64,000 nt of DNA from Verrucomicrobiota bacterium (GCA_016716505.1 JADJWF010000002.1:602434-666433); one strand, 5' to 3'. Positions 44,125-62,587 are shown, numbered from the stretch's first letter. Notes: generated by a model from the letters alone, not told the origin. Program-made: numbers and translations.

Positions 44125-44380
44125 AAGTCGCTCTCGCTTTGGTGACTGGCCAAGGGCCTGAAATTACTGGTTTGCCAGAAACTGCGGCTTGTCAAAGGAC
44201 ATTTTGTGATCGCCGCTCTCCGCAATCCCGCGCCGTGCAAGTCGCCACGGCGGCGAAAAAAAACGCGACACGAGTCGCGACCACGCTGGTCCAATGATTC
44301 GTGAGTTACAAACCGCGGGAATTCTCCCTGACAGCAACGGCAGCGAAGAGTATCAGCGTCGTGCCTGTCGCTTACCGATC

Positions 44381-46594: not shown

Positions 46595-47152
46595 ATGAGA
46601 CTCAACATTCGAACGGGAGTGCTGGCTTTGACGCTGGCAGGATTCATGGCGAGCACCGGCCTGGCGCTGGCGCAACAGGGCGGCGGTCCGGGCGGCCAGG
46701 GCCAGCGCGGCCAACGCGGGAACTTCGATCCCGCTCAGATGCAGCAACGCATGATGGAGCGGTATCGCGAACAACTCGGAATCACGAATGAAGACGAGTG
46801 GAAGGCCATCGAGCCGTTGATCGCCAAGGTCAATGAAGCCCGTCGCGAGGTCGGTTTCGGCGCGATGGGCCGGGGCATGATGGGGCGGCCCGGCGGTCCG
46901 GGAGGTCCGGGTGGCGACCAAGCCCAAGGTGCCCGCCGTGCCTTCGGCGGTGAACCCATGCCGGAACTCGACGCTCTCCAGCGCGCGGTGGAATCCAACG
47001 CCTCCGCCGCCGACATCAAGGCCGCCCTCGCGAAGTACCGTGATGCGCGGAAAGCCAAGGAGGCGAACCTGGCCGCAGCGCAGGACAATCTACGAAAGGT
47101 CCTGACCGCGAAGCAGGAGGCCCAGGCGGTCCTCATGGGCCTGCTGAATTAG
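46595..47152 (+). CDS. Periplasmic low-complexity protein with LTXXQ motif (Spy/CpxP-like, tentative)
   Basis: Signal peptide MRLNIRTGVLALTLAGFMASTGLALA, G/Q/P-rich stretches, C-terminal KVLTAKQEAQAV. Lies 27 nt upstream of the ATPase gene. Confidence 0.55.
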   Translation: MRLNIRTGVLALTLAGFMASTGLALAQQGGGPGGQGQRGQRGNFDPAQMQQRMMERYREQLGITNEDEWKAIEPLIAKVNEARREVGFGAMGRGMMGRPGGPGGPGGDQAQGARRAFGGEPMPELDALQRAVESNASAADIKAALAKYRDARKAKEANLAAAQDNLRKVLTAKQEAQAVLMGLLN

Positions 47153-47179
47153 TCCGGCCGCCGGCCACCTCGAGCGATC

Positions 47180-48945: not shown

Positions 48946-48965
48946 GACTCCCGGGGGCTTCCCAG

Positions 48966-50246: not shown

Positions 50247-50263
50247 ACTCCTTGAACACGATT

Positions 50264-50812
50264 ATGAATGCGCATCTGAAGACCGAAGTCCGCAGCGACC
50301 ATCCGACGTTGGAAACCCGGCCCCCCAGCCACCGAGCGCAGCGAGGGGCGCCGGCCTCCGGCCTGCGGGCCGCCACTTGCAAACAGCGGCGCTCGCGGGG
50401 CTTCACCCTCATCGAGTTGTTGCTGGTGCTGGTGATCCTGGGCGTGCTGGCGGCCATTGTGGTGCCCAAGTTCGCCGGCCGTACCGAGCAGGCCAAGATC
50501 ACCGCGGCGCAGACGCAGATCGCCACCTTCGGCACGGCCTTGGACGCCTTCGAGGTGGACAATGGCTACTACCCGAAAGGCAGCAACGGGCTGCAAGACC
50601 TCATCGAGCAGCCGCGCGATGCTCAAAACTGGCGCGGGCCGTACCTGCAGGCGAAAGGCGGCCTGCCCGTGGACCCGTGGGGCAACCCGTACATTTACAA
50701 CTGTCCGGGCAAGTTCAACACCACCGGCTACGACCTGAGCTCCATGGGACCGGATGGCCGCGAGGGCACCGACGACGACATCACCAACTGGAAATCCTCC
50801 GGCAGCCGCTGA
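50264..50812 (+). CDS. gspG: Type II secretion major pseudopilin GspG
   Basis: GFTLIELLLVLVILGVLAAIVVPKFAGRTEQAKITAAQTQIATFGTALDAFEVDNGYYP...QNWRGPYL...DPWGNPYIY...SMGPDGREGTDDDITNW. Unusually long leader if the ATG at 50264 is used. Confidence 0.9.
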   Translation: MNAHLKTEVRSDHPTLETRPPSHRAQRGAPASGLRAATCKQRRSRGFTLIELLLVLVILGVLAAIVVPKFAGRTEQAKITAAQTQIATFGTALDAFEVDNGYYPKGSNGLQDLIEQPRDAQNWRGPYLQAKGGLPVDPWGNPYIYNCPGKFNTTGYDLSSMGPDGREGTDDDITNWKSSGSR

Positions 50813-50821
50813 CCCGCCCAC

Positions 50822-51457
50822 ATGCGCTGGCGCCGGTCCATTCCGCTGAGCCTGAACGGCACGCCGCCTCCGCGCGCCGGCTTCACGCTCATCGAGCTGA
50901 TCCTTGTGATGGCGATGCTGTTGACGGTGCTGTCCCTCGCGGCGCCTTCGCTCGCGCGGTTCTTTCGGGGTCGCGGATTGGATGCCGAAGCCACCCGTTT
51001 CCTCGCCCTGATCCGCCATGCCCAAAGCCGCGCGGTGTCCGAGGGTGTACCCATGGTGGTATGGCTCGATCCCGAGAACCGGCTCTACGGCCTGGAGGCC
51101 GAGTCCAGTTACCTCGAGCACGATGATCAGGCGCTCGAGTTCCGCGTGGACGACAAGGTCGAGGTCGAGGCCGAGATCCCGCCGACGAGCAGCCTCCTCA
51201 CCGACCTGCTGGACCGCGCGGCAACGTTGCCGCCCGATCTTAACCTCACGCAGTACACGGAACGCACCACCGCCATCAAAAACCTGGTGTGGTTTCGTTT
51301 CAATCCGGATGGATTCATCACGGAAAACCTGCCCCGATGGGTCGAGTTTCGCGAGGGCCGGGACGACCGGACCGCCGCGCGGCTGTGGGTGGCGCAGAGT
51401 TTCAACCGGCTGAGCTATGAGATTTGGACGAACCCGCCAACCCTCCTCCGTCGCTAG
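50822..51457 (+). CDS. gspH: Minor pseudopilin, GspH/FimT-like
   Basis: RAGFTLIELILVMAMLLTVLSLAAPSLARFFRGRGLDAEATRFLALIRHAQSRAVSEG. Confidence 0.65.
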   Translation: MRWRRSIPLSLNGTPPPRAGFTLIELILVMAMLLTVLSLAAPSLARFFRGRGLDAEATRFLALIRHAQSRAVSEGVPMVVWLDPENRLYGLEAESSYLEHDDQALEFRVDDKVEVEAEIPPTSSLLTDLLDRAATLPPDLNLTQYTERTTAIKNLVWFRFNPDGFITENLPRWVEFREGRDDRTAARLWVAQSFNRLSYEIWTNPPTLLRR

Positions 51458-51878
51458 GTCCGCCCGCGCGGGCTTCACGCTGGCCGAGGTGCTGGCGGCG
51501 CTGGTCTTTATGGCGATTGTCATCCCGGTGGCGGTGCAGGGGCTCCAGATCGCCAGTCGCGCGGGACAGGTGGCGGAACGGAAGGCCGTGGCGGCGCGGA
51601 TCGCGGACCGGATGCTGAATGAGCTCATGGTCACCGGGCAATGGCAGTCGAGCAACCCGTCCGGAAACCTCTTCGAGGGCGTTCACGAGTACGTTTGGCG
51701 CGCCCAGAGCGAGCCGTGGGAGCTGGGCGTGCTCCGGGTGCTCCACGTGGACGTTTTCTTCCGCGTCCAGGGACAGGAATACGATGTTCGCCTGAGCACG
51801 CTGATGGACCCGTCGGCCGGGCTGACAACGCTGACCAACGCCCCCGCCACCACCACTGGGATGGAGGTGAGCCCGTGA
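51417..51878 (+). CDS. gspI: Minor pseudopilin, GspI-like
   Basis: RAGFTLAEVLAALVFMAIVIPVAVQGL... Small size and position fit. Overlaps the upstream gene by 41 nt. Confidence 0.6.
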   Translation: MRFGRTRQPSSVARSARAGFTLAEVLAALVFMAIVIPVAVQGLQIASRAGQVAERKAVAARIADRMLNELMVTGQWQSSNPSGNLFEGVHEYVWRAQSEPWELGVLRVLHVDVFFRVQGQEYDVRLSTLMDPSAGLTTLTNAPATTTGMEVSP

Positions 51879-52594
51879 ACGCGTCGTGCCCCATTTACCC
51901 CGGTTCCCCAAACTGCCGGCGCGGTTTCACGTTGATCGAGGTGTTGCTGGCGGTGGTGATCTTCGGGGTCGTGCTCATCGCCATGCACGCGGTCTTCCAC
52001 AGCGCGCTCCGCCTGCGCAACCGCACGGCGGCGAGTCTCGAGCGGGCGGTTCCCCTGCAGCAGACCCTCGCAATCATCCAACGCGACCTGGCCAACGTGG
52101 TCTTGCCGGGAGGCGTTCTGGCCGGGCACCTGCAAGCCATTCCCACCCAGCAAACTGAACCCGGCCAGGCGGGACCGTTCTGGTACACGTCCGTGGGAAT
52201 TCTTTCGCCGACGATGCCGTGGGCCACCGTCCAGCGCGTGGCCTATCGCCTGACCCAGCCCACGAACGACACGTTGGGACTCGACCTTTACCGGAGCGTC
52301 AGTCGCAACCTGCTCCCCGTCCTGACCGATCTGGCGGAAGACCAGTTCTTGATGAGCGGGGTCGAGGCACTGCTCTTCGAGTACTACGACGGCACGCAAT
52401 GGCGCGACTACTGGGATTCCACCGTCGAAACGAACTCCCTGCCCGCCGCCATCAAGCTGAAGCTCTACCTCGCCGCCGGTCAGACCAATCGCCTGCTGGA
52501 GCAGCCGATCGAATTGGTCGTGCCGGTGGTGGTCCAGCCGTCCGCGCAATCCACCACCAATCAGACCGCCGCCGCGGGTGGAGGCAACGCGTGA
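51875..52594 (+). CDS. gspJ: Minor pseudopilin, GspJ-like
   Basis: The GTG at 51875 overlaps the upstream stop (GTGA). RRGFTLIEVLLAVVIFGVVLIAMHAVFHSALRLRN... Confidence 0.65.
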   Translation: MNASCPIYPGSPNCRRGFTLIEVLLAVVIFGVVLIAMHAVFHSALRLRNRTAASLERAVPLQQTLAIIQRDLANVVLPGGVLAGHLQAIPTQQTEPGQAGPFWYTSVGILSPTMPWATVQRVAYRLTQPTNDTLGLDLYRSVSRNLLPVLTDLAEDQFLMSGVEALLFEYYDGTQWRDYWDSTVETNSLPAAIKLKLYLAAGQTNRLLEQPIELVVPVVVQPSAQSTTNQTAAAGGGNA

Positions 52595-54093
52595 GGGTCC
52601 AGCGCAACAGATCGGTGCCTGATTCGGCGAGCGAGGGCGCGCTGCCCCTCCGGCCGCGCCCCGGCCGCTGCGCCACCGGCTCCGTCCTGATCATCGTGCT
52701 CTGGATTTCGTTCGGGCTGGTCAGCCTGACTCTGTACTTCGCAGGGACGATGAACTTTGAGCTGCGCAGCGCGGATCATCGCGTGGCATCGCTTGAGGCG
52801 GCTCAGGCCATCGCCGGGACGGCCCGGTACGTGAGCAACATCCTCATGAACGTGGATGAGCCGGGCATGGTGCCGGAGGTCATCACCTACGAACCCGAGG
52901 CCTTGCCCGTCGGCGAGGCGACAGTGTGGTTCATCGGTCGCGATCCACAACAATCCCGGCCCGATGAACCCTACTTCGGCCTCGTGGATGAGGCGTCGAA
53001 ACTCAACCTCAACACCGCGACGGTCGCGATGCTGGAACTGCTGCCAGGCATGACGCCGCAGCTTGCCGCCGCCATCGTGGACTGGCGCGACGCCGACAGC
53101 GACGTGACGCCCAACGGCGCCGAGGACGAAACCTATCAACGGCTCAACCCGTCCTATCGGTGCAAGAACGCGCCGTTTGAGTCCGTGGAAGAACTGCGGA
53201 TGGTGTATGGCGCGGAACTGGCCCTGCTGATCGGAGAGGACACCAATCTCAATGGAGCGCTGGATCCCAACGAACGCGACGGTACGCGAACAATGCCGGA
53301 CGACAATCAGGACGGTGTGCTCGACGCCGGCCTGTTCGAGTATCTGACCGTGTACACTCGCGAACCCAACACCGCTCCCGATGGCAGTACGCGCGTGAAC
53401 CTGGCCGGCACCAACACCACCGAACTGGTCACCCTGCTGCAGGACTTCCTCGGTACGGACCGCGCCAATCAGGTCCTCGCGCAACTGGGCGCAGGCCCTG
53501 GGAGCGGGGGGGGCGGCCCCGGCGGAGGTGGTCCCGGCGGCGGTGCCGGCGGCACGACCCTGACCAACACGTTCTCGAGCGTCCTGGAGTTCTACATTCG
53601 CAGCGGCCTGACAGCGGACGAATTTGAGATGATCGAAGGCTACCTCACCGCTTCCACGAACTCGGTGGTCGAGGGGCTGGTGAACGTGAACACCGCCAGC
53701 GAGGCAGTGTTGGCCTGCATTCCGGGCATCGGCCCGGAAAATGCGCCGGCGCTCGTGGCCGCCCGGCAGAACCAACTCCGTTCCACCTCGGTGGGCTGGG
53801 TGAAGGACGTGCTGGACGAAGCGGCGGCCATCCAGGCCGGGCCTTACCTGACGGGCCGCAGCTATCAATTCACGGCGGACCTGGCGGCGGTGGGCCGTCA
53901 CGGCCGCGGCTACCAACGCGTGCGCTACGTGTTCGACACCTCGGAAGGCACCCCACGGGTCGCGGCCCGGCAGGACCTTACGCATTTGGGCTGGGCGCTG
54001 GGCAGGGAAGTTCGCGAAGTGATCTGGGCCGCGCGCCAGGCCGGCGTTCCGGCGTTCGGGAGTGTGGGAATGGGCCCGGCGCGTTGGAGATGA
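52591..54093 (+). CDS. gspK: Minor pseudopilin GspK-like
   Basis: GTG at 52591 (GTGA overlap). GSVLIIVLWISFGLVSLTL, GLVDEASKLNLNTA, C-terminal helix-hairpin-helix VNVNTASEAVLACIPGIGPENAPALVAAR. Confidence 0.75.
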   Translation: MRVQRNRSVPDSASEGALPLRPRPGRCATGSVLIIVLWISFGLVSLTLYFAGTMNFELRSADHRVASLEAAQAIAGTARYVSNILMNVDEPGMVPEVITYEPEALPVGEATVWFIGRDPQQSRPDEPYFGLVDEASKLNLNTATVAMLELLPGMTPQLAAAIVDWRDADSDVTPNGAEDETYQRLNPSYRCKNAPFESVEELRMVYGAELALLIGEDTNLNGALDPNERDGTRTMPDDNQDGVLDAGLFEYLTVYTREPNTAPDGSTRVNLAGTNTTELVTLLQDFLGTDRANQVLAQLGAGPGSGGGGPGGGGPGGGAGGTTLTNTFSSVLEFYIRSGLTADEFEMIEGYLTASTNSVVEGLVNVNTASEAVLACIPGIGPENAPALVAARQNQLRSTSVGWVKDVLDEAAAIQAGPYLTGRSYQFTADLAAVGRHGRGYQRVRYVFDTSEGTPRVAARQDLTHLGWALGREVREVIWAARQAGVPAFGSVGMGPARWR

Positions 54094-55586
54094 AGGGCAT
54101 GAAATGGTCTGAGTTCAACCCGGGAAGTCTGCTGATCCGCAAACGTCAGCCGGCGACGGCTTTGCTCGCGCTCTCGTTGGAGGGCTCCACCCTGGCCGGG
54201 GTGGAAGTCCGGCGCACCAACGGCTCCGTCGAGGTCAAGCACACCTTTTGTGCGCCGTTGTCGCTGGACCCCCTCACCGGCGAACCGGACCTGGTCGGCC
54301 GCGAGATTCGCAAACTTCTCGACGCGGAGGGCGTCCGGGAGCGCGCCTGTGTCCTGGGGCTGCCGGCGGCCTGGGCATTACAGGTCAACGTGAAGCTGCC
54401 CGAGCTTTCCGAGGCTGACCTGGCAAGCTTTCTCGACCTCGAGGCGGAGCGCGGTTTCCCCACCAACGTCGAAGGCTTGGTGGTGGCACAGTCCCGCTAC
54501 CGCACGCCGGGAGGGGACGCCTGGGCCACGCTGCTGGGGGTGTCGCGGCAAAACGTGGACCGGCTCGACGCGGTGCTGCGTGCGGCGCAATTACGTCCGC
54601 TCGGCTTTGGGCTGGGCATCGCGGCCCTCCCGCGGCATCCCGGCGGCGGCAACCCCGAAGGCGCTTCGGCCGCGCTCTTCGTGGCCGGTGAGGAAGTGAC
54701 CCTCCAGTTTGGTTGCGGTGCCGGCGTGGTCGCGTTGCGGATCATGGATGTGGCCGGTCATCCAGCTCACGACGCCGCGGAGGATCCCCTTGACCAACTG
54801 GCCCGGGACATCCGCATCTCACTGGGCCAGCTTCCGCAGGACCTGCGCGATGGGCTGCGAACGCTGTCGGTGATCGGTCGCGGTCGCGCGGCGGAAGAAC
54901 TTGCGGCCGGTTTGCGTTCGCGCCTGAGCGCGCTGGACCTCGCGATCGAGCACGAGGAACGTTACGCGGCGGGCGATCTGGCACTGCAAGTGACTCCCGG
55001 CTCCCGCATCACGCCGGAGTTGGGCCTGGCGGTGCAATACCTGGCCAACGGGAAGCTGGCCCTTGATTTTCTCCCGCCCAAGATCAGCAAGTGGCAGCAA
55101 CTTTCCGCCCGCTACAGCTCGCAAAAGCTGATGGTGGCGGGGGCCACGGCCGGGGCGGTGGCCGCGCTGGTATTGCTGGCCTTCGGCATCCAGCAGGCGC
55201 AACTCGCGTACTGGCGCGGCAAGTGGAACGGCATCAAGGCCCGCGTCACGGAGGTGGAGCGATTGAACCAGGAAAATCGCAAGTTGCGGCCGTGGTTCGA
55301 CGATTCGTTCCGCTCGCTGACCATCCTGCGCCGCCTCACGGAAGCGTTTCCCGAGGACGGGAGCGTCTCAGCCAAGACCGTCACCATCCGCGAACTCACC
55401 GGCCCGCAGGAAGGCACCACGGTGACGTGCAGCGGCACCGCGCGCAGCAACCAGGCACTGATCCAGACCATTGACCGGTTGCGCACGGCCAGCGGCGTCA
55501 AGGACCTGCTGCGCGGCCCGCTGCAGGGCGGCACGCCCCTGCAGTTCACCTTCAGCTTCCGCTGGGAGGAGAAAGGCGCCCGATGA
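54090..55586 (+). CDS. GspL-like / PilM-PilN-like assembly protein (cytoplasmic actin-fold domain, TM, periplasmic domain)
   Basis: ATG at 54090 overlaps the gspK stop (ATGA). LALSLEGSTLAGVEV..., TM LMVAGATAGAVAALVLLAFGI, then a ferredoxin-like C-terminus. Confidence 0.6.
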   Translation: MKGMKWSEFNPGSLLIRKRQPATALLALSLEGSTLAGVEVRRTNGSVEVKHTFCAPLSLDPLTGEPDLVGREIRKLLDAEGVRERACVLGLPAAWALQVNVKLPELSEADLASFLDLEAERGFPTNVEGLVVAQSRYRTPGGDAWATLLGVSRQNVDRLDAVLRAAQLRPLGFGLGIAALPRHPGGGNPEGASAALFVAGEEVTLQFGCGAGVVALRIMDVAGHPAHDAAEDPLDQLARDIRISLGQLPQDLRDGLRTLSVIGRGRAAEELAAGLRSRLSALDLAIEHEERYAAGDLALQVTPGSRITPELGLAVQYLANGKLALDFLPPKISKWQQLSARYSSQKLMVAGATAGAVAALVLLAFGIQQAQLAYWRGKWNGIKARVTEVERLNQENRKLRPWFDDSFRSLTILRRLTEAFPEDGSVSAKTVTIRELTGPQEGTTVTCSGTARSNQALIQTIDRLRTASGVKDLLRGPLQGGTPLQFTFSFRWEEKGAR

Positions 55587-56125
55587 AGTTCAAGAACCGA
55601 CAGCAGTTGCTCGGGATTCTGGCCATTGCCGTGGTGGTCGTATGGGTGGCGGACCGGATCGTGCTCCGGTGGTTGCTGGACACCTGGGACGCCCGGGCGG
55701 CGGAGATCGCCAAGCTCAAGCAAACTGTGGCCGCCGGGGAAACCTTGCTCCTGCGCGAGCGCTACATCCGGGAGGACTGGTCCCGCCAGCAGACGAATCT
55801 GCTGCCAGCCGAGCCGTCCGCCGCCGAAACACAACTCCTGAAAGCCTTCGAGCGGTGGTCCTCGGAAAGCCGGGTGGGCATCCGGGGCATCAAACCCCAG
55901 TGGAAACGCACCGCCGATGACCGTCCCCTGCTGGAATGCCGTGTGGACGCTTTTGGTAACCTTTCGGCGATCACACGCTTCTTGTACAACGTGGAACAGG
56001 ATCCGCTGGCCCTGCGGGTGGAGGCGCTGGATCTGACGGCCCGGGATGACAACGGTGAACAACTGACCTTGGGTTTGCAGGTGAGCGCACTGCTGGCCCT
56101 GCCCGCCGACGGCAAAGGCAAATGA
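55583..56125 (+). CDS. GspM/PilO-like bitopic membrane protein
   Basis: ATGA overlap. TM LLGILAIAVVVVWVA, coiled-coil, C-terminal domain. Assigned by architecture and position. Confidence 0.5.
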   Translation: MKFKNRQQLLGILAIAVVVVWVADRIVLRWLLDTWDARAAEIAKLKQTVAAGETLLLRERYIREDWSRQQTNLLPAEPSAAETQLLKAFERWSSESRVGIRGIKPQWKRTADDRPLLECRVDAFGNLSAITRFLYNVEQDPLALRVEALDLTARDDNGEQLTLGLQVSALLALPADGKGK

Positions 56126-56736
56126 AGGGAAACCGGTTCATGGGAATTGCGGGGGCGGCCGCGTTGGCCGCCGCGTTCGTCGCCGCTCGGGGCGCGGAGG
56201 CCACGAATGCCACGACCCGGGCGGATTACGCGTCCTTTCGCGTGGTGGTGGAACGGAATATATTCAACGCGAGTCGCTCAGGCCGTCAGCAGCCCCGGGA
56301 ACGGGAACCAGCCCGGCGGCCGGCACGCACCGACACCTTCGGGCTGGTCGGCACGATGACGTACGAGAAGGGACCGCTGGCGTTCTTTGACGGATCGAGT
56401 TCGGACTATCGCCAGGTGGTCAAACCGGGCGGGACCATCGCCGGGTTTCAGTTGGAGGCGATCCGGCCGGACGCAGTGACCTTGCGGCGCGACAGCAACA
56501 CGTTCGAGTTGTTCCTCGGCACGCAAATGAGGCGCGAAGACGGCGGCGAATGGAAAGTCGCGGGGCAGTTCGAAGCGGCGTCTTCGAGTAGCGGCGGCGG
56601 CGGTTCGAGTGGATCAGGTCGCGCCTCTTCCGGGGGGCCCGATGCTGGCGCCCCGGCCACTGCGGCCAGCGGCGGCGGAGATGTCAGTGAAGTCTTGCGA
56701 CGATTGATGGAAAAACGGGAAAGGGAATCACAATGA
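56122..56736 (+). CDS. GspC/PilP-like periplasmic protein
   Basis: ATGA overlap. Signal/TM, FGLVGTMTYEKGPLAFFDGSSSDYRQVVKPGGTIAGFQLEAIRPDAVTL (HR-domain-like), S/G-rich tail. Confidence 0.5.
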   Translation: MKGNRFMGIAGAAALAAAFVAARGAEATNATTRADYASFRVVVERNIFNASRSGRQQPREREPARRPARTDTFGLVGTMTYEKGPLAFFDGSSSDYRQVVKPGGTIAGFQLEAIRPDAVTLRRDSNTFELFLGTQMRREDGGEWKVAGQFEAASSSSGGGGSSGSGRASSGGPDAGAPATAASGGGDVSEVLRRLMEKRERESQ

Positions 56737-58475
56737 AGAAGCTCCTTGCCTTGATGACCTTGGCACTGCTCGGGTGGGCGGTGCCACCGACCCTCGGCGT
56801 GCCAGCCGATCCGCCGGAGGCGGAGCCCGCCGCTGGGCCCGACGTGGCGCATGAAGCCGAGGCAGACGAGGACGCCGCCGCTCACGCCGCTGACAGCGAC
56901 GAGCCGGCCGCGCCATCCGCGCCGCAAGCTGTCCTTCCAGCGCGACCTGAGGCGGCCACTCCGCCGCGTCCTTCCGGCACCGCTCCCACCTTTGTGCCCC
57001 GGTCACGAACGGGCGCGCCACGGCTGGCGGCCAACGCCCCGGAGGAACAGCCGGCGGGGGGCAACGGGGCGCCAGCCGCCGACCCGGTTCGCCCGGTAGC
57101 GGACGGCGAGAAGGGACTGCGATTGAACTTTCGCAACGCCCCCCTCGAGTTGGTGCTGAACTACCTGAGTGAAGCGGCGGGGTTCATCATCATCCTCGAA
57201 ACCGAAGTACGCGGGAGACTGGATGTCTGGAGCAATCAACCGCTCGACAAGGAGGAAGCCGTTGAACTCCTGAACAAGGTCCTCAACAAAAACGGCTTCG
57301 CCGCCATCCGCGACGGGCGGACGTTGACGATCGTCAGCCGTGACGAGGCGAAGCGACGCGACATCCCGGTGCGCGCGGGCAATGATCCGCAGCAGATTCC
57401 CAAGAGCGAGGCGATCATTACCCAGGTCATCCCGGTGCGGTTCATCAATGCGGTTCAGGTGGCCCGCGATTTGCAATCTTTGTTCCCGCCCTCGGCCACG
57501 ATCGCCGCGAACGAAGGCGGCAACGCCGTGGTGATCACCGACACCCAAACGAATATCCGGCGCATCGCGGAGATCATCCGCGCACTGGACACCTCGATCG
57601 CCAGCGTTTCCACCATCCGCGTCTTCCCCCTGCGCTACGCCGACGCCAAGGCGCTGGCCACGGTCGTCCGGGATCTGTTCGCGAGCACGGACAGCGGGCG
57701 CGGGAATCCGCAGCAACAGCAGCAATTCCGTGGGTTCCGGCCGCCCGGTTTTGGCGGCGACCAAGGAGGTCAGCAGCAGAACGCCGGCGGCAGCGCCCGG
57801 GTGGCCACGCCGCGCGTGGTGGCGGTGGCCGACGAACGTAGCAACTCGCTGGTGGTGAGCGCACCCGAGGATCAGATGACCCTCATCGCCGACATGGTCG
57901 CGGAGATAGACACCAACGTGGACGACATCACCGAGTTGCGCGTCTTCCGGCTCCAATTTGCCGACCCGCAAGAGACGGCGGATCTCATTCTCGGGCTCTT
58001 TCCCGACCCGAATCAGAGCGGCCAGGGCAACCGGGGCCAGGTACGGTTTGGCGGTCCCGGCGGATTCGGCGGCGGTCAGGCCGCCGCCAGCACGCCCAGC
58101 AGCCGCCTGCAGAAACAAAGCAAGGTTCTCGCGGTGCCCGATCTGCGAACGCGGTCCGTGGTGGTCAGCGCGGCGCGGGAGTTGATGGATCAAATCGCCA
58201 CCATGGTGGCCCAGTTGGATTCAGATCCCGCCAAGAAGCAGAAAGTCTTCGTGTACTCGGTGGAAAACACCGACCCGCAGGCGGTGGAGGAGATTCTGCG
58301 CGGGCTGTTCGAGGGCCAGAATGCGCGCAATCGCTCGTTGAACACGACGCGGAACAACCAGCGCCAGACGGGCAACCAGCTCAACAATCGGGCCAACAAC
58401 ACCTCGCGCAATCAGGGCACGCGCAACAGCAGTTTCGGCACCGGCAACACCGGCTTCGGCGGCACCGGCCGGTAA
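56733..58475 (+). CDS. gspD: Secretin N-terminal-domain protein (N0 plus ring-building N domains only, no beta-barrel domain)
   Basis: Signal peptide. N0-like LRLNFRNAPLELVLNYLSEAAGF. Three complete N domains (IPVRFINAVQV..., IRVFPLRYADAKAL..., LRVFRLQFADPQET...). Then half a domain (KVFVYSVENTDPQAVEEILRGLF) and an N/Q/G tail, stop TAA. Confidence 0.8.
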   Translation: MKKLLALMTLALLGWAVPPTLGVPADPPEAEPAAGPDVAHEAEADEDAAAHAADSDEPAAPSAPQAVLPARPEAATPPRPSGTAPTFVPRSRTGAPRLAANAPEEQPAGGNGAPAADPVRPVADGEKGLRLNFRNAPLELVLNYLSEAAGFIIILETEVRGRLDVWSNQPLDKEEAVELLNKVLNKNGFAAIRDGRTLTIVSRDEAKRRDIPVRAGNDPQQIPKSEAIITQVIPVRFINAVQVARDLQSLFPPSATIAANEGGNAVVITDTQTNIRRIAEIIRALDTSIASVSTIRVFPLRYADAKALATVVRDLFASTDSGRGNPQQQQQFRGFRPPGFGGDQGGQQQNAGGSARVATPRVVAVADERSNSLVVSAPEDQMTLIADMVAEIDTNVDDITELRVFRLQFADPQETADLILGLFPDPNQSGQGNRGQVRFGGPGGFGGGQAAASTPSSRLQKQSKVLAVPDLRTRSVVVSAARELMDQIATMVAQLDSDPAKKQKVFVYSVENTDPQAVEEILRGLFEGQNARNRSLNTTRNNQRQTGNQLNNRANNTSRNQGTRNSSFGTGNTGFGGTGR

Positions 58476-58500
58476 CAGCTCTGGGGTCGAAAGGAACACC

Positions 58501-59616
58501 ATGAAGAAAAACTGGTTCAAACGCGGCGTCTTCCTGGGCGCAGTGGCGGCCATCATCTGGGGGGTCTGTTCGCCGGGCATCGCCCAGCAGGCGCAACGTC
58601 GGACGACCAGCTCCTACGGATCGGCCACCGAGGTCGGCGAGGCGATGGTGACCTCGGACCCGGAGACGCGAAAACTGATTGTGGTGACGGACGACGAAAC
58701 CGCCCAGTACATCAGCCAGGTCATTACGAACCTGGACCGCGCCGCTCCGCAGGTGTTGATCAACGTGGTGTTCATGGAGGTCACCTATCGTGATGGCGTG
58801 GATATTGGCATCAACGGCACCTACACCTGGCAGGGCACCGACACCTCGGGAGGCGTGGTCCAGAACTTCAACGCCATGCCCGGCGGGCTCACTTCCGGCG
58901 GGACCACCGCCACCGTCATCGGGGACGATTTCACCGTCACCCTCCGCGCGCTGGCGGAGCAGGGCCGCCTGCAGGTGCTGTCGCGCCCCACGATCCTCGC
59001 CCGTAACAATCAGCAGGCAACCATCACCGTGGGACAGAGCGTGCCGCTGGTGACCGGCGTCGTGTTCGACAACTTCGGCAATCAACGCAACACCATCTCC
59101 TACCGCGACGTGGGCATCATCCTGACGGTCACGCCGTTCATCACGTCAGACGAGCTGGTCGAGATGATCGTCACCCCGGAGATCTCCAACCTGTCCGACC
59201 AGACGGTGCCGATTCTCACCGGCACCAACACCGTGGGAGCGCCGGTCATCAATCAGCGCGCGGCGGACACCGTGGTGGTAACCCCGAGCGGTCAGACGGT
59301 GGTGATCGGCGGCTTGATCCAGGACAACAAGACCAAGATCGAGAGCAAGACGCCGGTGCTGGGCGACATCCCCCTGCTCGGCGCGGCGTTCCGGCGGCGC
59401 GTGGAGCAGAACACCAAGACGGAATTGCTGATCTTCCTGACGCCGCGGATCGTCAAGCATCCCTCCGAGCTGGCGGCATTGACCACCAAAGAGCGCGGCA
59501 ACACGGTCATCATGCCCAAGTCCTTCAAACCCGAGGATCTGGACAAGATCCTCGAAGGCCAGGCGCCCCGGACCGATCCGCTGGCGGACAAGCGGAAAAA
59601 GAAGAAAGCCTCCTGA
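58501..59616 (+). CDS. gspD: Secretin C-domain protein (second half of an N domain plus the secretin beta-barrel domain)
   Basis: Own signal peptide MKKNWFKRGVFLGAVAAIIWGVCSPGIAQQ. AMVTSDPETRKLIVVTDDETAQYISQVITNLD. Secretin domain LQVLSRPTILARNNQQATI...TPVLGDIPLLGAAFRRRVEQNTKTELLIFLTPRIV. Confidence 0.85.
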   Translation: MKKNWFKRGVFLGAVAAIIWGVCSPGIAQQAQRRTTSSYGSATEVGEAMVTSDPETRKLIVVTDDETAQYISQVITNLDRAAPQVLINVVFMEVTYRDGVDIGINGTYTWQGTDTSGGVVQNFNAMPGGLTSGGTTATVIGDDFTVTLRALAEQGRLQVLSRPTILARNNQQATITVGQSVPLVTGVVFDNFGNQRNTISYRDVGIILTVTPFITSDELVEMIVTPEISNLSDQTVPILTGTNTVGAPVINQRAADTVVVTPSGQTVVIGGLIQDNKTKIESKTPVLGDIPLLGAAFRRRVEQNTKTELLIFLTPRIVKHPSELAALTTKERGNTVIMPKSFKPEDLDKILEGQAPRTDPLADKRKKKKAS

Positions 59617-59646
59617 GTCGCGGCCGGGCCTCCTCCTCCAGCGACC

Positions 59647-61203
59647 ATGACCCGGCAAACCCGACTGGTGTACGGCTCGTTACTGCTCGCGTGGCTCACC
59701 ATCGCCATCTGGCAGACCGCCGAGCACGCCCGGGTCCGGCGCATCGCCCGCGAAGCCCTCGTCAACCACGCCCGGGACGTGTCCACCACCGTCGGGCTCG
59801 TCATGCGCTCGCAGCGTCGTTTCGGCATTATCTCCAAGGAACGCATGGAATCCGCGCTGGCGGCCCTGGTGAAACCGGACGAACTCAACGCGATCGCGCT
59901 CCTGAACGACGCCGGCGAAGTGGTTGCCTCGGCTGGCGCGCCGATTGACTACGACGTCAAGGGCTTGGTCCCGCGGGGCGCCCATTGGGGCCGGGACACC
60001 GTCACGCTCGTGAACTTGGTGGACCTTGGCACCAACGTCACGGCGGAGGCCGAGGGACCACGGCCCACGCTGGTGTTACCGCGCGGCGCCTTTGGCACGA
60101 ATCGCCCCGGCCCGCCAGGCCCCCCGACCGAAGACCGGCCCAATGGCCCGCCGAATGCCGACGAAGCCCGTCCCCCGGGACCGCCCGCCGGTGATCAGCC
60201 CCCGACGCCCCCCGCCGACGCCAATGGGCCTCCGGCACCCAACCCCGCGTCCGACCGGCCCCGGTTCGGCCCGGGCGGCGGACGCCCGCCCTTCGGCAGG
60301 CCGTTTTGGATGAGCGAGGCCGAATACCGCGCCGCCATCGAGAAGCAGGGAGTTCACAGTTTCGTCGTCGTCCTGTCGGCCCGCCCGTACCGGGCCGCCA
60401 TCGGGGCGGATTTGTGGCTGCGGGGACTGGTGGGCTTGCTGGCGACCGTCGCGGTGGGCGGACTGGGGATGGCGTGGCGGGCCATGGTAAGATCGTCAGA
60501 GCTTGAAGTGCGCCTGGCCAGGGCAGCCGAGTTGAACGCCCGGCTCAAGGAGATGAACCTCGCAGCAGCGGGCCTCGCCCATGAGACGAAGAACCCGCTC
60601 AATATCATCCGCGGGCTCGCCCAGATGATCTCTCAACTCGACGCGGCACCCGCCGACGTCCGCGACAAATCGCGGTCCATCGTCCACGAAGCCGATCGCG
60701 TCACCGCGCAACTGAACGAATTCATCAATTACTCCCGGCCGCGCGAGGTCAGGCGCGCTGCGGTGTCCCTCTCGGCGGTGGTTCAGGAGGTGGTGCGGAC
60801 CCTCGCGTTCGACCTGGAGGAAAAGGAAGTTCAGCTCACCGTGCCGCCCGATTTGCCACGCGTCATCGCCGACGAACAGCTCCTTCGCCAGGCGTTGTTC
60901 AACCTCTTCCTGAACGCCATCCAGGCCCTCGAACGCGGCGGCGAAATCACCGTGGTGGCCGCGCGCGACCCCGCCCGCGGCGTCACCCTCGAGATCCGCG
61001 ACAACGGACCAGGCGTGCCCGCCGAGCACCGCCAGGACATCTTCAAGCCTTACTTCACCACCAACCAAAGAGGAACGGGCCTCGGTCTCGCGGTGGTGCA
61101 TCAGATTGTCCTCGCTCATGGCTGGGACATCGAATGCCTCGCCAACGAGCCCCGGGGCGCGGTCTTCCGCCTCTCCCAGATCCAACCGGCTCCGGCTGCC
61201 TGA
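59647..61203 (+). CDS. Sensor histidine kinase (HisKA + HATPase_c), two TM segments flanking a sensor domain with a Pro-rich insert
   Basis: H-box AAAGLAHETKNPLNIIRG, N box LFNLFLNAIQA, G boxes RDNGPGVP and GTGLGLAVV. Confidence 0.85.
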   Translation: MTRQTRLVYGSLLLAWLTIAIWQTAEHARVRRIAREALVNHARDVSTTVGLVMRSQRRFGIISKERMESALAALVKPDELNAIALLNDAGEVVASAGAPIDYDVKGLVPRGAHWGRDTVTLVNLVDLGTNVTAEAEGPRPTLVLPRGAFGTNRPGPPGPPTEDRPNGPPNADEARPPGPPAGDQPPTPPADANGPPAPNPASDRPRFGPGGGRPPFGRPFWMSEAEYRAAIEKQGVHSFVVVLSARPYRAAIGADLWLRGLVGLLATVAVGGLGMAWRAMVRSSELEVRLARAAELNARLKEMNLAAAGLAHETKNPLNIIRGLAQMISQLDAAPADVRDKSRSIVHEADRVTAQLNEFINYSRPREVRRAAVSLSAVVQEVVRTLAFDLEEKEVQLTVPPDLPRVIADEQLLRQALFNLFLNAIQALERGGEITVVAARDPARGVTLEIRDNGPGVPAEHRQDIFKPYFTTNQRGTGLGLAVVHQIVLAHGWDIECLANEPRGAVFRLSQIQPAPAA

Positions 61204-61207
61204 TCCG

Positions 61208-62587
61208 ATGTCCACCCCGCCCTCAAATGCCCTTGCCCCCGCTCGCATCCTGATCGTGGATGACGATCCCGGCCAGCGCAGTTTGCTGGATTCTTTCCTC
61301 CGCGGACAGGGCTTCGCGACCACGACCGTCGAATCCGGCGAGGCGGCTCTCGCCCGGCTCGCGGCGGAGCCCTTCGCGATGATGATCTCGGACGTGCGGA
61401 TGCCGGGAATGTCCGGCCTCGACACCCTGCGGCGCGCGCGCCAACAACGCCATGCGCTGCCCGTGCTGTTGGTCACGGCCTACGCCGACATCCGCGACGC
61501 GGTGAACGCCATGCGCGACGGCGCGGTGAATTACCTGGCCAAGCCGATTGATCTCGACGAACTGCTCGCCACCGTGCGGCGAGCAGTGGGTCTCGGCGCC
61601 ACCCCACCGCGCGGCGCGCCCGGCCAGCCCTTGCCCGCCAACCTGGTCGCCGTCAGCCCGTTGATGCAGTCCCTGATCCGCGATGCCGCGCTGGTCGCCG
61701 CGTCCGACAGCCGGGTGTTGATTTCCGGCGAAAGCGGCTCGGGGAAGGGAATGTTGGCGGAGCTGATTCATGCGTGGAGCCCGCGCGCGGGCGGACCGCT
61801 GATCAAGGTGAATTGCTCCGCGCTGACGGGACCGGAGCTGGAGACGGCGCTGTTTGGCCCGGCGGGCGAGGAGACACCCGGAGGAGCGTTCGCGGCGGCG
61901 GCCGGTGGCACGCTCGTGCTGGACGACGTGGACGGCTTGCCCGCTGCGCTGCAGGCCCGTCTGCTCCGCTGGGTGGAAGACGATGCGATCGCCCCACCAA
62001 AGGAGGCCGCTCGGCCCGCAGCGGCGGCGCGACTCATCGCGGTGACGCGCCTGGACCTCGAAGACGAGGTGACCGCCGGCCGGTTCCGCGAAGACCTCTT
62101 TTACCGGCTCAGCGTCGTCGAACTGAACGTGCCGCCGCTCCGGGAGCGGACCGCCGACATTCTGCCGCTGGCGACCATCCTCCTCGCCGAACTCACCGAT
62201 GGTCGGGCCCGCTTGTCCGCGTCGGTGAACGATCCGCTGACGCGCTATGCCTGGCCGGGGAACGTGCGGGAACTCCGCAACGCCCTCGAACGCGCCGCGT
62301 TGCTGTCGCGCGGGGAACTGATTCTGCCCGATCACCTCCCGGCGCGAGTTCGCGAAGCTGCGGCGCCCCCGGCCTCCGCCGAGCCGGGTCGCCTCGAGGA
62401 CATCGAGCGGCAAGCCATCCTCCAGGCCTTGGCCAGGCACGGGTTCAACCGCTCGGTGACCGCGCGGCACCTCGGCATCAGCCGGCGGGCGCTGCTGTAC
62501 AAGATCGCGCGGATGCGCGCCGAGGGATTGCCGGTGGATTTCCCCGGGGCGCGCGTTGAAGACCGTCCGGCGGGTGGCACTTTGTAA
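61208..62587 (+). CDS. NtrC-family response regulator (REC + AAA+ + Fis-type HTH) with a non-canonical GAFTGA region
   Basis: ILIVDDDPGQ...MISDVRMPG, Walker A GESGSGKG, GGTLVLDDVD, RFREDLFYRL, WPGNVRELRN, HTH NRSVTARHLGISRRALLYKI. Confidence 0.9.
   Translation: MSTPPSNALAPARILIVDDDPGQRSLLDSFLRGQGFATTTVESGEAALARLAAEPFAMMISDVRMPGMSGLDTLRRARQQRHALPVLLVTAYADIRDAVNAMRDGAVNYLAKPIDLDELLATVRRAVGLGATPPRGAPGQPLPANLVAVSPLMQSLIRDAALVAASDSRVLISGESGSGKGMLAELIHAWSPRAGGPLIKVNCSALTGPELETALFGPAGEETPGGAFAAAAGGTLVLDDVDGLPAALQARLLRWVEDDAIAPPKEAARPAAAARLIAVTRLDLEDEVTAGRFREDLFYRLSVVELNVPPLRERTADILPLATILLAELTDGRARLSASVNDPLTRYAWPGNVRELRNALERAALLSRGELILPDHLPARVREAAAPPASAEPGRLEDIERQAILQALARHGFNRSVTARHLGISRRALLYKIARMRAEGLPVDFPGARVEDRPAGGTL

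What the first reader, a model, noticed from the sequence alone, without database searches (positions are those of the whole stretch)
56733..59616. Secretin of the type II secretion-like operon is split into two separately exported proteins, with the break inside its last ring-building domain
Known T2SS/T4P secretins (GspD/PilQ) are single polypeptides: periplasmic N0/N1-N3 domains followed by the beta-barrel secretin domain. Here ORF 56733-58475 has its own signal peptide. It carries an N0-like domain and three complete beta-alpha-beta-beta-alpha N domains, then only the first beta-alpha of a fourth (KVFVYSVENTDPQAVEEILRGLFEG). It ends in an N/Q/G-rich tail with a TAA stop. Twenty-five nt later, in a different frame and after a purine-rich GAAAGGAA, ORF 58501-59616 starts with a typical signal peptide (MKKNWFKRGVFLGAVAAIIWGVCSPGIAQQ). 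It then supplies exactly the missing beta-beta-alpha half (AMVTSDPETRKLIVVTDDETAQYISQVITNLD) followed by the complete secretin domain. The break falls at the position where the other N domains of the same protein carry long Q/G-rich loops. Because the second half has acquired its own start and export signal, this is not a simple nonsense or frameshift lesion. It implies reconstitution of a domain in trans in the periplasm, or a two-component secretin. I know of no described precedent, but I cannot search.
Basis: partly seen in the sequence, partly recalled or inferred. Interest (0 to 1): 0.78.

Follow-up and report, generated by a model that had tools for sequence, protein, structure and literature searches.

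The report
Conserved two-gene (split) T2SS secretin
The outer-membrane channel protein of a type II secretion-like machine is encoded here as two adjacent genes, each with its own export signal and cut in the middle of one small domain; the same cut occurs in about 80 related species, so it is an inherited two-piece channel and not a broken gene.

Summary
ORF1 (56733-58475) encodes a signal peptide, N0, three complete N domains and the first beta-alpha of a fourth. After a TAA stop and 25 nt, ORF2 (58501-59616) encodes a signal peptide, the missing beta-beta-alpha and a complete secretin domain.

It is not a lesion. All 80 non-redundant related loci have the same two genes, mostly Verrucomicrobiota plus Sumerlaeota and Lentisphaeria. 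Gaps are mostly 17-81 nt, all three relative frames occur, and 77 of 80 start with ATG followed by a signal-peptide-like N-terminus. dN/dS is about 0.1 for both genes. The split forms are one clade in a tree.

The nearest fused relatives are Planctomycetota GspD. They are colinear and carry a 40-100 aa low-complexity loop exactly where the cut lies.

Trans-completion of the domain in the periplasm is inferred, not shown. Joining the halves gives a full Pfam Secretin_N match. An AlphaFold chimera folds both halves at pLDDT above 90, while ORF1 alone leaves beta1 unformed.

Precedents exist: the rhizobial T3SS pair RhcC1/RhcC2, and the mitochondrial T2SS, where GspDN3 and GspDN2 are N-domain halves. 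I found no description of the bacterial T2SS case. It is a new variant of a known kind.

The parts
56733..58475 (+). ORF1: the periplasmic part of the secretin (580 aa). It has a signal peptide, a P/A/E-rich linker, N0, N1, N2, N3, the first half of a fourth N domain and a low-complexity tail.
   Evidence: ORF list. Pfam N0 plus three Secretin_N stretches, no PF00263. GspD profile positions 1-334. AlphaFold domain boundaries. All 120 closest homologues are 440-625 aa and have the same domains.
56733..56798 (+). ORF1 signal peptide, about residues 1-22 (MKKLLALMTLALLGWAVPPTLG).
   Evidence: Read from the sequence. The family consensus starts the same way. Heuristic only.
57123..57356 (+). N0 domain (residues 131-208).
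   Evidence: PF21305 at 49.7 bits. Aligns to N0 of solved GspD structures. AlphaFold pLDDT about 90.
57414..58217 (+). Three complete N domains: N1 (residues 228-290), N2 (294-392) and N3 (400-495). N2 and N3 each have a Q/G-rich loop of about 40 aa between alpha1 and beta2.
   Evidence: Pfam Secretin_N at 131 bits in three stretches. AlphaFold secondary structure and low-pLDDT loops at model residues 203-243 and 304-346.
58233..58322 (+). First half (beta1-alpha1) of the split last N domain, residues 501-530 (KKQKVFVYSVENTDPQAVEEILRGLFEGQN).
   Evidence: Secretin_N profile positions 1-25. Highly conserved in 120 homologues, with V505, N512, D514 and F526 invariant in 100 sequences. Strand plus helix at pLDDT about 94 in the chimera. 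No strand and pLDDT 71-78 when ORF1 is folded alone.
58323..58472 (+). N/Q/R/T/G-rich C-terminal tail (residues 531-580). It contains the nearly invariant motif RQTGNQLNNRA (residues 543-553; Q545, Q549, L550, N551 and R553 conserved; window 58365-58391).
   Evidence: C-termini of 120 homologues. Invariant and near-invariant columns. Helix propensity only, at low confidence.
58476..58500 (+). 25-nt spacer between the two genes, with the purine-rich GAAAGGAA at 58489-58496, 4 nt before the ATG.
   Evidence: Sequence. In 80 related loci the gap is mostly 17-81 nt with any relative frame.
58501..59616 (+). ORF2: the outer-membrane part of the secretin (371 aa). It has a signal peptide, a linker, the second half of the split N domain, the secretin C-domain and a C-terminal tail.
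   Evidence: ORF list. PF00263 at 163 bits. GspD profile positions 277-600. PDB GspD, XcpQ and PulD matches. The 120 closest homologues are nearly all 342-416 aa, apart from four N-terminally cut products and one 483-aa call.
58501..58584 (+). ORF2 signal peptide, residues 1-28 (MKKNWFKRGVFLGAVAAIIWGVCSPGIA | QQ).
   Evidence: Sequence. The same three-part N-terminus ending in AxA-Q occurs in nearly all full-length homologues although the sequence itself diverges. 78-79 of 80 loci pass the heuristic.
58639..58740 (+). Second half (beta2-beta3-alpha2) of the split N domain, residues 47-80 (EAMVTSDPETRKLIVVTDDETAQYISQVITNLDR). It is preceded by the conserved Y-x-x-x-T-E-V-G-E-A motif.
   Evidence: Secretin_N profile positions 32-69. 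Aligns to XcpQ N3 residues 289-321. Strands and helix at pLDDT 92 in the chimera.
58741..59460 (+). Secretin C-domain (beta-barrel and gate), residues 81-320, starting at PQVLINVVFMEVT.
   Evidence: PF00263. PDB sequence matches. Foldseek of the model against T2SS secretins gives E about 1e-24.
47180..56736 (+). Upstream genes of the same T2SS-like operon: GspE (47180-48945, frameshifted here), GspF (48966-50246), GspG (within 50006-50812), GspH-like (50822-51457), GspI (51417-51878), GspJ (to 52594), GspK (to 54093), a 500-aa L-like gene (54084-55586), a 180-aa M-like gene (55583-56125) and a 204-aa C-like gene (56122-56736).
   Evidence: Pfam. The same gene order occurs in L001, L003 and L005.
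59647..62587 (+). Downstream histidine kinase (59647-61203) and sigma-54 response regulator (61106-62587). This neighbourhood is conserved with the split secretin pair.
   Evidence: Pfam. Kinase next to the pair in L001, L003 and L005, with the sigma-54 regulator after it in L003.

Best explanation
This is a naturally split secretin of a type II secretion-like system. An ancestral PVC-type gspD underwent gene fission inside the long low-complexity loop between alpha1 and beta2 of the N domain that sits directly under the barrel.

Shown from sequence: the upstream gene gained a stop codon. The downstream gene gained a ribosome-binding region, an ATG and a Sec-type signal peptide.

Inferred: both products are exported separately. 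ORF2 reaches the outer membrane and oligomerises through its complete secretin C-domain. It exposes an incomplete N domain (beta2-beta3-alpha2) to the periplasm. ORF1 supplies the missing beta1-alpha1 from its C-terminus, so the domain is completed non-covalently. That docking tethers the N0-N3 rings of ORF1 to the pore, and N0 would contact the GspC-like protein of the inner-membrane platform. The functional protomer is therefore two chains, and the channel would be a ring of ORF1-ORF2 pairs.

The conserved motifs either side of the cut are probably remnants of the loop that stabilise the junction or bind a partner. These are QLNNR in the ORF1 tail and Y...TEVGEA at the mature ORF2 N-terminus.

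The selective advantage of the split is unknown.
For: - **Conservation of the two-gene form.** The top 120 homologues of each gene contain only their own part. All 80 non-redundant loci that hold both parts have a stop, a gap of mostly 17-81 nt, and an ATG (77 of 80) followed by a signal-peptide-like N-terminus (78-79 of 80). Relative frames 0, 1 and 2 occur 32, 25 and 23 times, and all three stop codons are used.
- **Selection.** dN/dS is 0.12 for ORF1 and 0.10 for ORF2 against an 84-88% identical relative.
- **Single origin.** 34 split representatives form one clade in a neighbour-joining tree, with no fused member.
- **Fission point.** Fused Planctomycetota GspD proteins are colinear with ORF1 plus ORF2. 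They have beta1-alpha1, a 40-100 aa low-complexity loop, then beta2-beta3-alpha2 and the barrel at the same place.
- **Complementarity of the halves.** The Pfam Secretin_N match is 14.1 bits (positions 1-25) for one half and 19.8 bits (positions 32-69) for the other. Joined, they give 35.9 bits over positions 1-69.
- **Structure prediction.** The AlphaFold chimera folds beta1 and the start of alpha1 at pLDDT about 94 and beta2-beta3-alpha2 at 92, with the tails between them disordered. The model matches solved T2SS secretins over about 540 alignment columns. ORF1 alone does not form beta1 and its confidence drops to 71-78.
- **Residue conservation.** Core residues of both halves and the tail motif are invariant or nearly so.
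Against: - No experiment or multimer prediction shows that the two chains bind.
- The chimera's alignment included fused homologues covering both halves, so its confidence partly reflects homology.
- Docking of the halves could not be inspected, because coordinates and PAE are not returned.
- Signal peptides were judged by heuristic only.
- In this particular genome the operon's GspE is frameshifted. The system may be inactive here, or the assembly may carry an indel error.
- A secretin C-domain alone can oligomerise (mitochondrial GspD, PMC8134430). ORF2 could therefore work without ORF1 attached.
Confidence: 0.75

Rival explanations
1. Two independent proteins without domain reconstitution. 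ORF2 would be a self-sufficient short secretin. ORF1 would be a separate periplasmic ring or adaptor, working like GspC or PilP. The half domains would be evolutionary leftovers.
For: ORF2 keeps the whole C-domain. Truncated mitochondrial GspD oligomerises on its own (PMC8134430). In the ORF1-only model the C-terminal beta1 is unstructured. In Rhc T3SS, RhcC1 is thought to act as a linker rather than as part of the same fold (PMC3459982).
Against: Leftover half domains should decay. Instead both are among the most conserved segments in more than 100 sequences, down to about 52-58% overall identity. The genes are always adjacent and in the same order. The joined halves give a full-length, above-threshold Secretin_N match and a confident domain in the chimera.
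Confidence: 0.15
2. A lesion or an artefact. The split would be a pseudogenising nonsense or frameshift mutation, or an assembly error, in a normally single gspD.
For: The same operon in this window has an apparent 1-nt frameshift in gspE, so indel errors or decay do occur in this sequence.
Against: The split is present in 80 of 80 independent related loci from many assemblies, including closed chromosomes. ORF2 has its own conserved signal peptide. dN/dS is about 0.1 for both genes. The close relative L005 has an intact gspE and still has the split secretin.
Confidence: 0.01
3. Recoding. Stop-codon readthrough or programmed frameshifting would join ORF1 and ORF2 into one polypeptide, at least part of the time.
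For: In 32 of 80 loci the two genes are in the same frame, separated by one stop codon.
Against: The other 48 loci are in the +1 or +2 frame. Gap lengths vary widely (mostly 17-81 nt, extremes from -74 to 262) and all three stop codons are used. No conserved spacer sequence was noted in the 12 spacers printed. A fused product would also carry a hydrophobic signal peptide in the middle of a periplasmic loop.
Confidence: 0.02

Closest known systems
Canonical T2SS secretin GspD (PulD, XcpQ, EpsD; e.g. PDB 5WQ7, 5WQ8, 5WLN, 6HCG), and the fused GspD of Planctomycetota as the nearest relatives
   Same: The domain set and order are the same: N0, Secretin_N repeats and the secretin C-domain. The operon context is the same, with GspE to GspK and C/L/M-like genes. 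The sequences are colinear. The fused PVC proteins already have a long low-complexity loop in the last N domain.
   Different: Here there are two polypeptides with two signal peptides, and the break lies inside the last N domain. There is one more N domain (N0 plus four) than in the closest Planctomycetota proteins (N0 plus three). Each half scores below the NCBIfam GspD cut-off (218 and 223 bits against 351).
Rhc-family (rhizobial and P. syringae T3SS-2) secretin encoded by rhcC1 (nolW) and rhcC2
   Same: Secretin function is divided between two genes. One encodes the N-terminal periplasmic part and the other the pore-forming secretin domain. The reason for the division is unknown (PMC3574062, PMC3973906, PMC3459982).
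   Different: It belongs to a T3SS, not a T2SS. The two genes have different origins: RhcC2 is a Tad-like secretin with a BON domain, acquired by partial homologous gene replacement. The genes are not adjacent and are differently regulated. The division is not inside a domain, so no fold complementation is implied.
Mitochondrial T2SS-derived system of jakobids, heteroloboseans and malawimonads: GspD, GspDL and GspDN1-3 (Horvathova et al. 2021, PMC8134430)
   Same: GspD is broken into several polypeptides. GspDN3 is the N-terminal half and GspDN2 the C-terminal half of an N domain. GspDN2 continues into the first barrel strand (DRPPQQLFLEFVFLEV, compare LDRPAPQVLIKVVFLEVT in the ORF2 family). 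The eukaryotic break therefore lies at the same structural position. A yeast two-hybrid assay suggested that GspD and GspDN1 interact.
   Different: The system is eukaryotic, nuclear-encoded and mitochondrially targeted. [quoted passage not shown] Whether it is related to the bacterial split or convergent is unresolved.
TadB/TadC fission of the inner-membrane platform protein in type IV filament systems (Denise et al. 2019, PMC6668835)
   Same: A core component of a type IV filament machine underwent an ancient gene fission. The result was two tandem genes that stayed together.
   Different: It is a different component, the fission falls between duplicated domains rather than inside one, and no new signal peptide was needed. 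That survey reports no secretin fission.

Membership tests
T2SS secretin GspD (TIGR02517; Pfam PF21305 + PF03958 + PF00263) | Secretin C-domain (PF00263) that forms the outer-membrane barrel and gate | tested here: met
   ORF2 scores 163.2 bits over profile positions 1-169 of 169. PDB GspD and XcpQ match at E 2e-35. Foldseek of the model against T2SS secretins gives E 1e-24.
T2SS secretin GspD (TIGR02517; Pfam PF21305 + PF03958 + PF00263) | N0 domain followed by repeated Secretin_N (N1-N3) domains | tested here: met
   ORF1 has N0 at 49.7 bits and Secretin_N at 131.4 bits in three stretches. The AlphaFold model shows N0, N1, N2 and N3.
T2SS secretin GspD (TIGR02517; Pfam PF21305 + PF03958 + PF00263) | All domains on one polypeptide with one signal peptide | tested here: not met
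   There is a TAA stop, a 25-nt gap, a frame change and a second signal peptide. The same holds in 80 of 80 related loci.
T2SS secretin GspD (TIGR02517; Pfam PF21305 + PF03958 + PF00263) | Score above the curated equivalog cut-off (351.35 bits) | tested here: not met
   ORF1 scores 217.9 bits and ORF2 223.0 bits. Each covers about half of the profile.
T2SS secretin GspD (TIGR02517; Pfam PF21305 + PF03958 + PF00263) | Encoded with the other T2SS core genes (GspE, F, G, minor pseudopilins H-K, and C/L/M) | tested here: met
   GspE, F, G, H, I, J and K are found by Pfam. The C-like gene is a weak match (T2SSC, E 0.0017). The L- and M-like genes are assigned by position, with a weak T2SSM_b hit in L001.
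T2SS secretin GspD (TIGR02517; Pfam PF21305 + PF03958 + PF00263) | Assembles into a channel of about 15 subunits that secretes folded proteins | not testable with these tools
   This needs biochemistry or cryo-EM. No multimer prediction was available.
Rhc-type two-gene T3SS secretin (RhcC1/RhcC2) | Part of a non-flagellar T3SS gene cluster | tested here: not met
   The surrounding genes are T2SS-type. No Sct or Rhc genes were found among the operon and flanking ORFs scanned with Pfam (44294-62587).
Rhc-type two-gene T3SS secretin (RhcC1/RhcC2) | The pore-forming gene is of Tad (RcpA/CpaC) type with a BON domain, and has a different origin from the N-terminal gene | tested here: not met
   ORF2 matches T2SS GspD best (TIGR02517 at 223 bits; RcpA of PDB 8odn only at E 1e-22 against 2e-35 for XcpQ). 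No BON domain was found. ORF1 plus ORF2 are colinear with a single fused PVC GspD.
Mitochondrial T2SS split GspD (GspD, GspDL, GspDN1-3) | An N domain divided into N-terminal and C-terminal halves on separate polypeptides | tested here: met
   Profile coordinates 1-25 and 32-69 fall on ORF1 and ORF2. The eukaryotic description is in PMC8134430.
Mitochondrial T2SS split GspD (GspD, GspDL, GspDN1-3) | [quoted passage not shown] | tested here: not met
   This is a bacterial operon with Sec signal peptides, a complete C-domain, N0 and a GspC-like gene.
Mitochondrial T2SS split GspD (GspD, GspDL, GspDN1-3) | Specific sequence relationship (common descent of the split) | tested here: inconclusive
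   The GspDN3 profile against the ORF1-family half domain gives hhalign probability 82.8% and score 23.4, reached by 0 of 150 column shuffles. That is higher than for other N-domain halves (9-16). GspDN2 shows no preference for the split family. HMMER scores are insignificant. No Gcp16 homologue is nearby. No comparators from outside the PVC group were available.

The most novel reading that the evidence does not exclude
The bacterial split secretin and the fragmented GspD of the mitochondrial T2SS may share descent. On this reading the bacterial donor of the eukaryotic system already had a secretin cut between alpha1 and beta2 of the last N domain. GspDN3 would correspond to the ORF1 C-terminal half and GspDN2 to the ORF2 N-terminal half plus the first barrel strand. 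That would point to a PVC-type lineage as the source of the mitochondrial T2SS, whose donor is currently unidentified (PMC8134430).

Three observations fit this reading. The break is at the same structural position. GspDN3 has a specific profile-profile match to the ORF1 half domain. The published Gcp16 family is shared only with PVC bacteria.

Three observations do not fit. GspDN2 is no closer to the split family than to fused PVC proteins. HMMER scores are insignificant. No Gcp16 homologue lies near the operon.

Convergence at a loop that tolerates a break is the simpler reading.
Probability: 0.07. Interest if true: 0.85.

Novelty: new variant of a known kind. Interest (0 to 1): 0.6.

Why it matters
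Secretins are treated as single-chain protomers, and the domain next to the barrel (N3) is regarded as part of the stable core needed for assembly. This is a large natural clade in which that domain is built from two separately exported chains.

- It would show that the secretin protomer tolerates, and can maintain over long evolutionary time, a non-covalent junction at that point.
- It gives a natural system for separating pore insertion from attachment of the periplasmic vestibule.
- It identifies a loop that tolerates a break, which could be used for engineering split or tagged secretins.
- It matters for annotation. Each half falls below the GspD equivalog cut-off and is often named 'hypothetical' or 'secretin N-terminal domain-containing protein'. 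Genome surveys may therefore score these T2SS loci as lacking a proper secretin.
- It provides the first bacterial counterpart, in the material searched, to the half-N-domain proteins of the mitochondrial T2SS.

Tried and rejected
1. **Paired chimeric alignment.** I built 17 ORF1-tail plus ORF2 pairs taken from the same contigs, for AlphaFold.
2. **Unpaired alignments around a chimera.** A3, A4 and A5 were mis-registered by MAFFT and were discarded. ORF2 homologues aligned onto the ORF1 part, or were shifted by one N domain because Planctomycetota GspD has one N domain fewer. Local MAFFT trials showed that either the ORF1 family or the ORF2 family aligns, never both. An alignment with fused homologues and ORF2 homologues (A6) was correct and was used.
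3. **Recoding hypothesis.** Rejected from the frame and gap statistics.
4. **dN/dS against the Limisphaera-like locus L001.** At about 58% identity synonymous sites are probably saturated (dS 0.9-1.2), so only the comparison with L005 is used.
5. **Link to the mitochondrial T2SS.** HMMER searches with GspDN2 and GspDN3 profiles gave no significant or specific result. A Gcp16 search of the window and 86 loci gave nothing. Only the hhalign result for GspDN3 stands out.
6. **Literature.** Seven full-text searches for a described split T2SS or T4P secretin in Verrucomicrobiota or PVC bacteria found none. They did turn up the Rhc and mitochondrial precedents. Subscription-only papers were not searched.
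7. **Long alpha1 helix in the chimera model.** The helix ran through the tail motif at pLDDT 77-89. It was not reproduced with the ORF1-family alignment (pLDDT below 50), so it is treated as helix propensity only.

Full report
**The observation**

The window holds two same-strand ORFs exactly as described. ORF1 is 56733-58475 (580 aa, TAA stop). ORF2 is 58501-59616 (371 aa). They are separated by 25 nt that contain GAAAGGAA, and they lie in different frames.

Pfam places an N0 domain and three Secretin_N stretches in ORF1, and no secretin domain. It places only the Secretin domain in ORF2. On the NCBIfam GspD model, ORF1 covers profile positions 1-334 and ORF2 covers 277-600. Each scores about 220 bits, below the 351-bit cut-off for a whole GspD.

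The C-terminal ORF1 fragment KKQKVFVYSVENTDPQAVEEILRGLF matches Secretin_N positions 1-25. The ORF2 fragment EAMVTSDPETRKLIVVTDDETAQYISQVITNLD matches positions 32-69. Joined artificially, they give a full-length match (positions 1-69, 35.9 bits, cut-off 28.2).

ORF2 residues 47-79 align with the second half of N3 of Pseudomonas XcpQ, immediately before the conserved start of the barrel.

Both proteins begin with a charged start, a hydrophobic stretch and a small-x-small cleavage motif. This is a heuristic reading, because no signal-peptide predictor was available.

**Surroundings**

The pair closes a T2SS-like operon. In order it holds GspE, GspF, GspG, GspH-like, GspI, GspJ, GspK, a 500-aa L-like gene, a 180-aa M-like gene and a weak GspC-like gene. 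Most of these overlap by a few bases. A histidine kinase and a sigma-54 response regulator follow.

**Is it a lesion?**

No. The 120 best database relatives of ORF2 run from 100% down to 53% identity. Nearly all are 342-416 aa, apart from four N-terminally cut products and one 483-aa call, and none carries an N0 domain. The 120 best relatives of ORF1 are 440-625 aa with N0 and Secretin_N and never a secretin domain.

In contigs that encode relatives, the two genes are adjacent and in the same order, within the same operon.

A scan of one genome per GTDB species returned 80 loci. Together with three loci found earlier, 80 non-redundant loci contain both parts, and every one is split.
- The gap is mostly 17-81 nt (median about 38), with four outliers (-74, 3, 155 and 262 nt).
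- The relative frame is 0, 1 or 2 in 32, 25 and 23 loci.
- TGA, TAA and TAG all occur as the ORF1 stop.
- 77 of 80 downstream genes start with ATG.
- 78-79 of 80 have a signal-peptide-like N-terminus.

These figures exclude an assembly artefact, a recent pseudogene and conserved recoding.

Against a relative that is 84-88% identical, dN/dS is 0.12 for ORF1 and 0.10 for ORF2.

The record titles are mostly Verrucomicrobiota: Limisphaerales, Pedosphaera, Chthoniobacterales, Opitutae. There are also four Sumerlaeota (BRC1) and one Lentisphaeria.

**Origin**

A search of cluster representatives shows short, split-type proteins down to about 44% identity. Fused proteins of 700-1000 aa appear from about 45% identity. 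In a neighbour-joining tree of the secretin domain, the 34 split representatives form one clade without fused members. This suggests a single ancient fission.

Fused relatives are colinear with ORF1 followed by ORF2. The sources name the closest fused family as Planctomycetota GspD.

At the junction these fused proteins read beta1-alpha1 (for example EEAVFVYRLKNADAANLEQILNDLF). A 40-100 aa low-complexity loop follows, then GQVYFVADEDTNSLLV...LDxPVPQVLIKV. The cut in the window therefore lies inside a loop that was already long and unstructured. It is the same kind of loop that N2 and N3 of ORF1 carry.

The split family has N0 plus four N domains, the last one divided. The nearest Planctomycetota proteins have N0 plus three.

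**Do the halves complement each other?**

This step is inferred. Both halves are among the best conserved segments of their proteins.
- In ORF1, V505, N512, D514 and F526 are invariant in 100 sequences.
- In ORF2, G46, A48, D53, T56, D64 and T67 are nearly invariant, and D79 is invariant.

Several MAFFT alignments were mis-registered and discarded.

The alignment finally used had three parts: a chimera of window sequence (ORF1 396-580 followed by mature ORF2), 45 fused Planctomycetota proteins and 40 ORF2 homologues. I checked it by eye.

The resulting model (mean pLDDT 77) gives the following:
- N3 folds as expected.
- beta1 (ORF1 504-509) and the start of alpha1 reach pLDDT about 94.
- The ORF1 tail and the ORF2 linker are disordered (pLDDT below 50).
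- beta2-beta3-alpha2 (ORF2 49-78) reaches pLDDT 92.
- The barrel follows.

Foldseek matches the model to solved T2SS secretins (ExeD, GspD, PulD, XcpQ) at E about 1e-24 over about 540 alignment columns.

When ORF1 is folded alone with 99 family members, N0 to N3 are confident. The beta1 segment is not a strand, and the half domain drops to pLDDT 71-78.

This pattern is what trans-completion predicts. The fused homologues in the chimera's alignment contribute to the confidence, however. Neither coordinates nor PAE could be inspected.

**Conserved motifs at the cut**

The ORF1 tail is low in complexity but holds a nearly invariant Q..QLN.R motif (RQTGNQLNNRA, window 58365-58391). The mature ORF2 N-terminus has a conserved Y-x-x-x-T-E-V-G-E-A just before beta2. 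Their role is unknown. They may stabilise the junction.

**Comparison with what is known**

Three precedents exist.
- **Rhc-family T3SS.** The secretin is encoded by rhcC1 and rhcC2. These genes have different origins, because RhcC2 is a Tad-like secretin acquired by partial homologous gene replacement. They are not adjacent, and no domain is divided (PMC3459982, PMC3574062, PMC3973906, PMC4311626).
- **Mitochondrial T2SS-derived system of some protists.** GspD is fragmented into GspD, GspDL and GspDN1-3. GspDN3 and GspDN2 are described as the N- and C-terminal halves of an N domain (PMC8134430).
- **Type IV filament systems.** The large evolutionary survey reports fission only for TadB/TadC and none for secretins (PMC6668835).

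Seven full-text searches found no description of a split T2SS-type secretin in bacteria. I therefore class this as a new variant of a known kind. It is a widespread, inherited, in-situ fission of a bacterial gspD inside its last N domain.

**A lead that was followed part of the way**

In the published eukaryotic sequences, GspDN2 continues into the first barrel strand (DRPPQQLFLEFVFLEV). The ORF2 family has LDRPAPQVLIKVVFLEVT at that point. The eukaryotic break is therefore at the same structural position.

A profile of the GspDN3 core aligns without gaps to the ORF1-family half domain.
- hhalign gives probability 82.8% and score 23.4.
- None of 150 column shuffles reaches that score.
- The scores against N1, N2 and N3 first halves of the same proteins are 9.1, 15.6 and 13.7.
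- The score against the equivalent half of Planctomycetota GspD is 9.7.

Other tests do not support a specific link. GspDN2 shows no preference for the split family. HMMER scores are insignificant. Pfam's general model does not detect either protein. No Gcp16 homologue lies in the window or the loci. No comparators from outside the PVC group were available.

Common descent of the two splits is possible but unproven. Convergence at a permissive loop is the simpler reading.

**Caveat for this genome**

The gspE gene of the operon is in two frames (47180-48586 and 48538-48945). A single base added in the C run near 48567-48571 would restore it. A close relative has an intact 588-aa GspE together with the same split secretin.

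The frameshift is either a sequencing indel or a recent lesion. It does not affect the conclusion about the secretin family.

**Verdict**

I put about 0.95 on a conserved functional two-gene secretin. I put about 0.7 on completion of the N domain in trans as the way the two chains are joined.

Noticed in passing
window 47180-48945 (break near 48567-48571): The GspE ATPase of the same operon is split over two frames. 47180-48586 matches T2SSE profile positions 1-287 and 48538-48945 matches 294-369. One extra base in the C run of 'aactccccacgg' would restore ...CKAVDNSPTAAELKRQLG.... The close relative L005 has an intact 588-aa GspE. This is either a sequencing indel or a recent inactivation.
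   Followed up: partly
proteins P0305, P0309, P0326, P0327, P0331, P0332, P0335, P0338, P0376 and others: About 23 cluster representatives are giant proteins of 1,400-4,900 aa whose last ~320 residues are a secretin domain 33-40% identical to ORF2. In the tree they group with the fused forms. Neither their N-terminal content nor their taxonomy was examined.
   Followed up: no
window 58365-58391 (ORF1 residues 545-553) and 58609-58638 (ORF2 residues 37-46): Short, nearly invariant motifs sit in otherwise low-complexity sequence on both sides of the cut. The ORF1 tail has Q..QLN.R (RQTGNQLNNRA). ORF2 has Y-x-x-x-T-E-V-G-E-A before beta2. AlphaFold suggests only weak helix propensity for the first. 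Their function is unknown.
   Followed up: partly
eukaryotic GspDN3 and GspDN2 (PMC8134430, supplementary file 3) compared with ORF1 residues 500-530 and ORF2 residues 44-100: The mitochondrial T2SS half-N-domain proteins break at the same structural position. The GspDN3 profile matches the ORF1-family half domain specifically (hhalign probability 82.8%, 0 of 150 shuffles reach the score). GspDN2 shows no such preference.
   Followed up: partly
window 59647-62587; L001, L003 and L005 downstream of the secretin pair: A histidine kinase directly follows the split secretin pair in all four places, and a sigma-54-dependent response regulator follows it in the window and in L003/L004. This suggests a linked regulatory module.
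   Followed up: no
window 44294-46072: A 592-aa ORF just upstream of the operon has a DUF1559 (SBP_bac_10) match at residues 476-509. This domain is common in PVC proteins that carry prepilin-like N-termini, so it may be a pseudopilin-like or substrate protein.
   Followed up: no
proteins P0266, P0273, P0284, P0287, P0295, P0299, P0317, P0350: Several relatives of 500-590 aa have only about 160-210 residues ahead of the region that matches ORF2. In the tree they fall among the fused forms. They could be short secretins with fewer N domains, or splits at other positions.
   Followed up: no
L042, L015, L023, L061, L045: Some loci with the split secretin come from MAGs labelled Cyanophyceae, Bifidobacterium, Klebsiella, Limnocylindria or Omnitrophota. 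These labels probably reflect mis-binning or mislabelling rather than true hosts.
   Followed up: no
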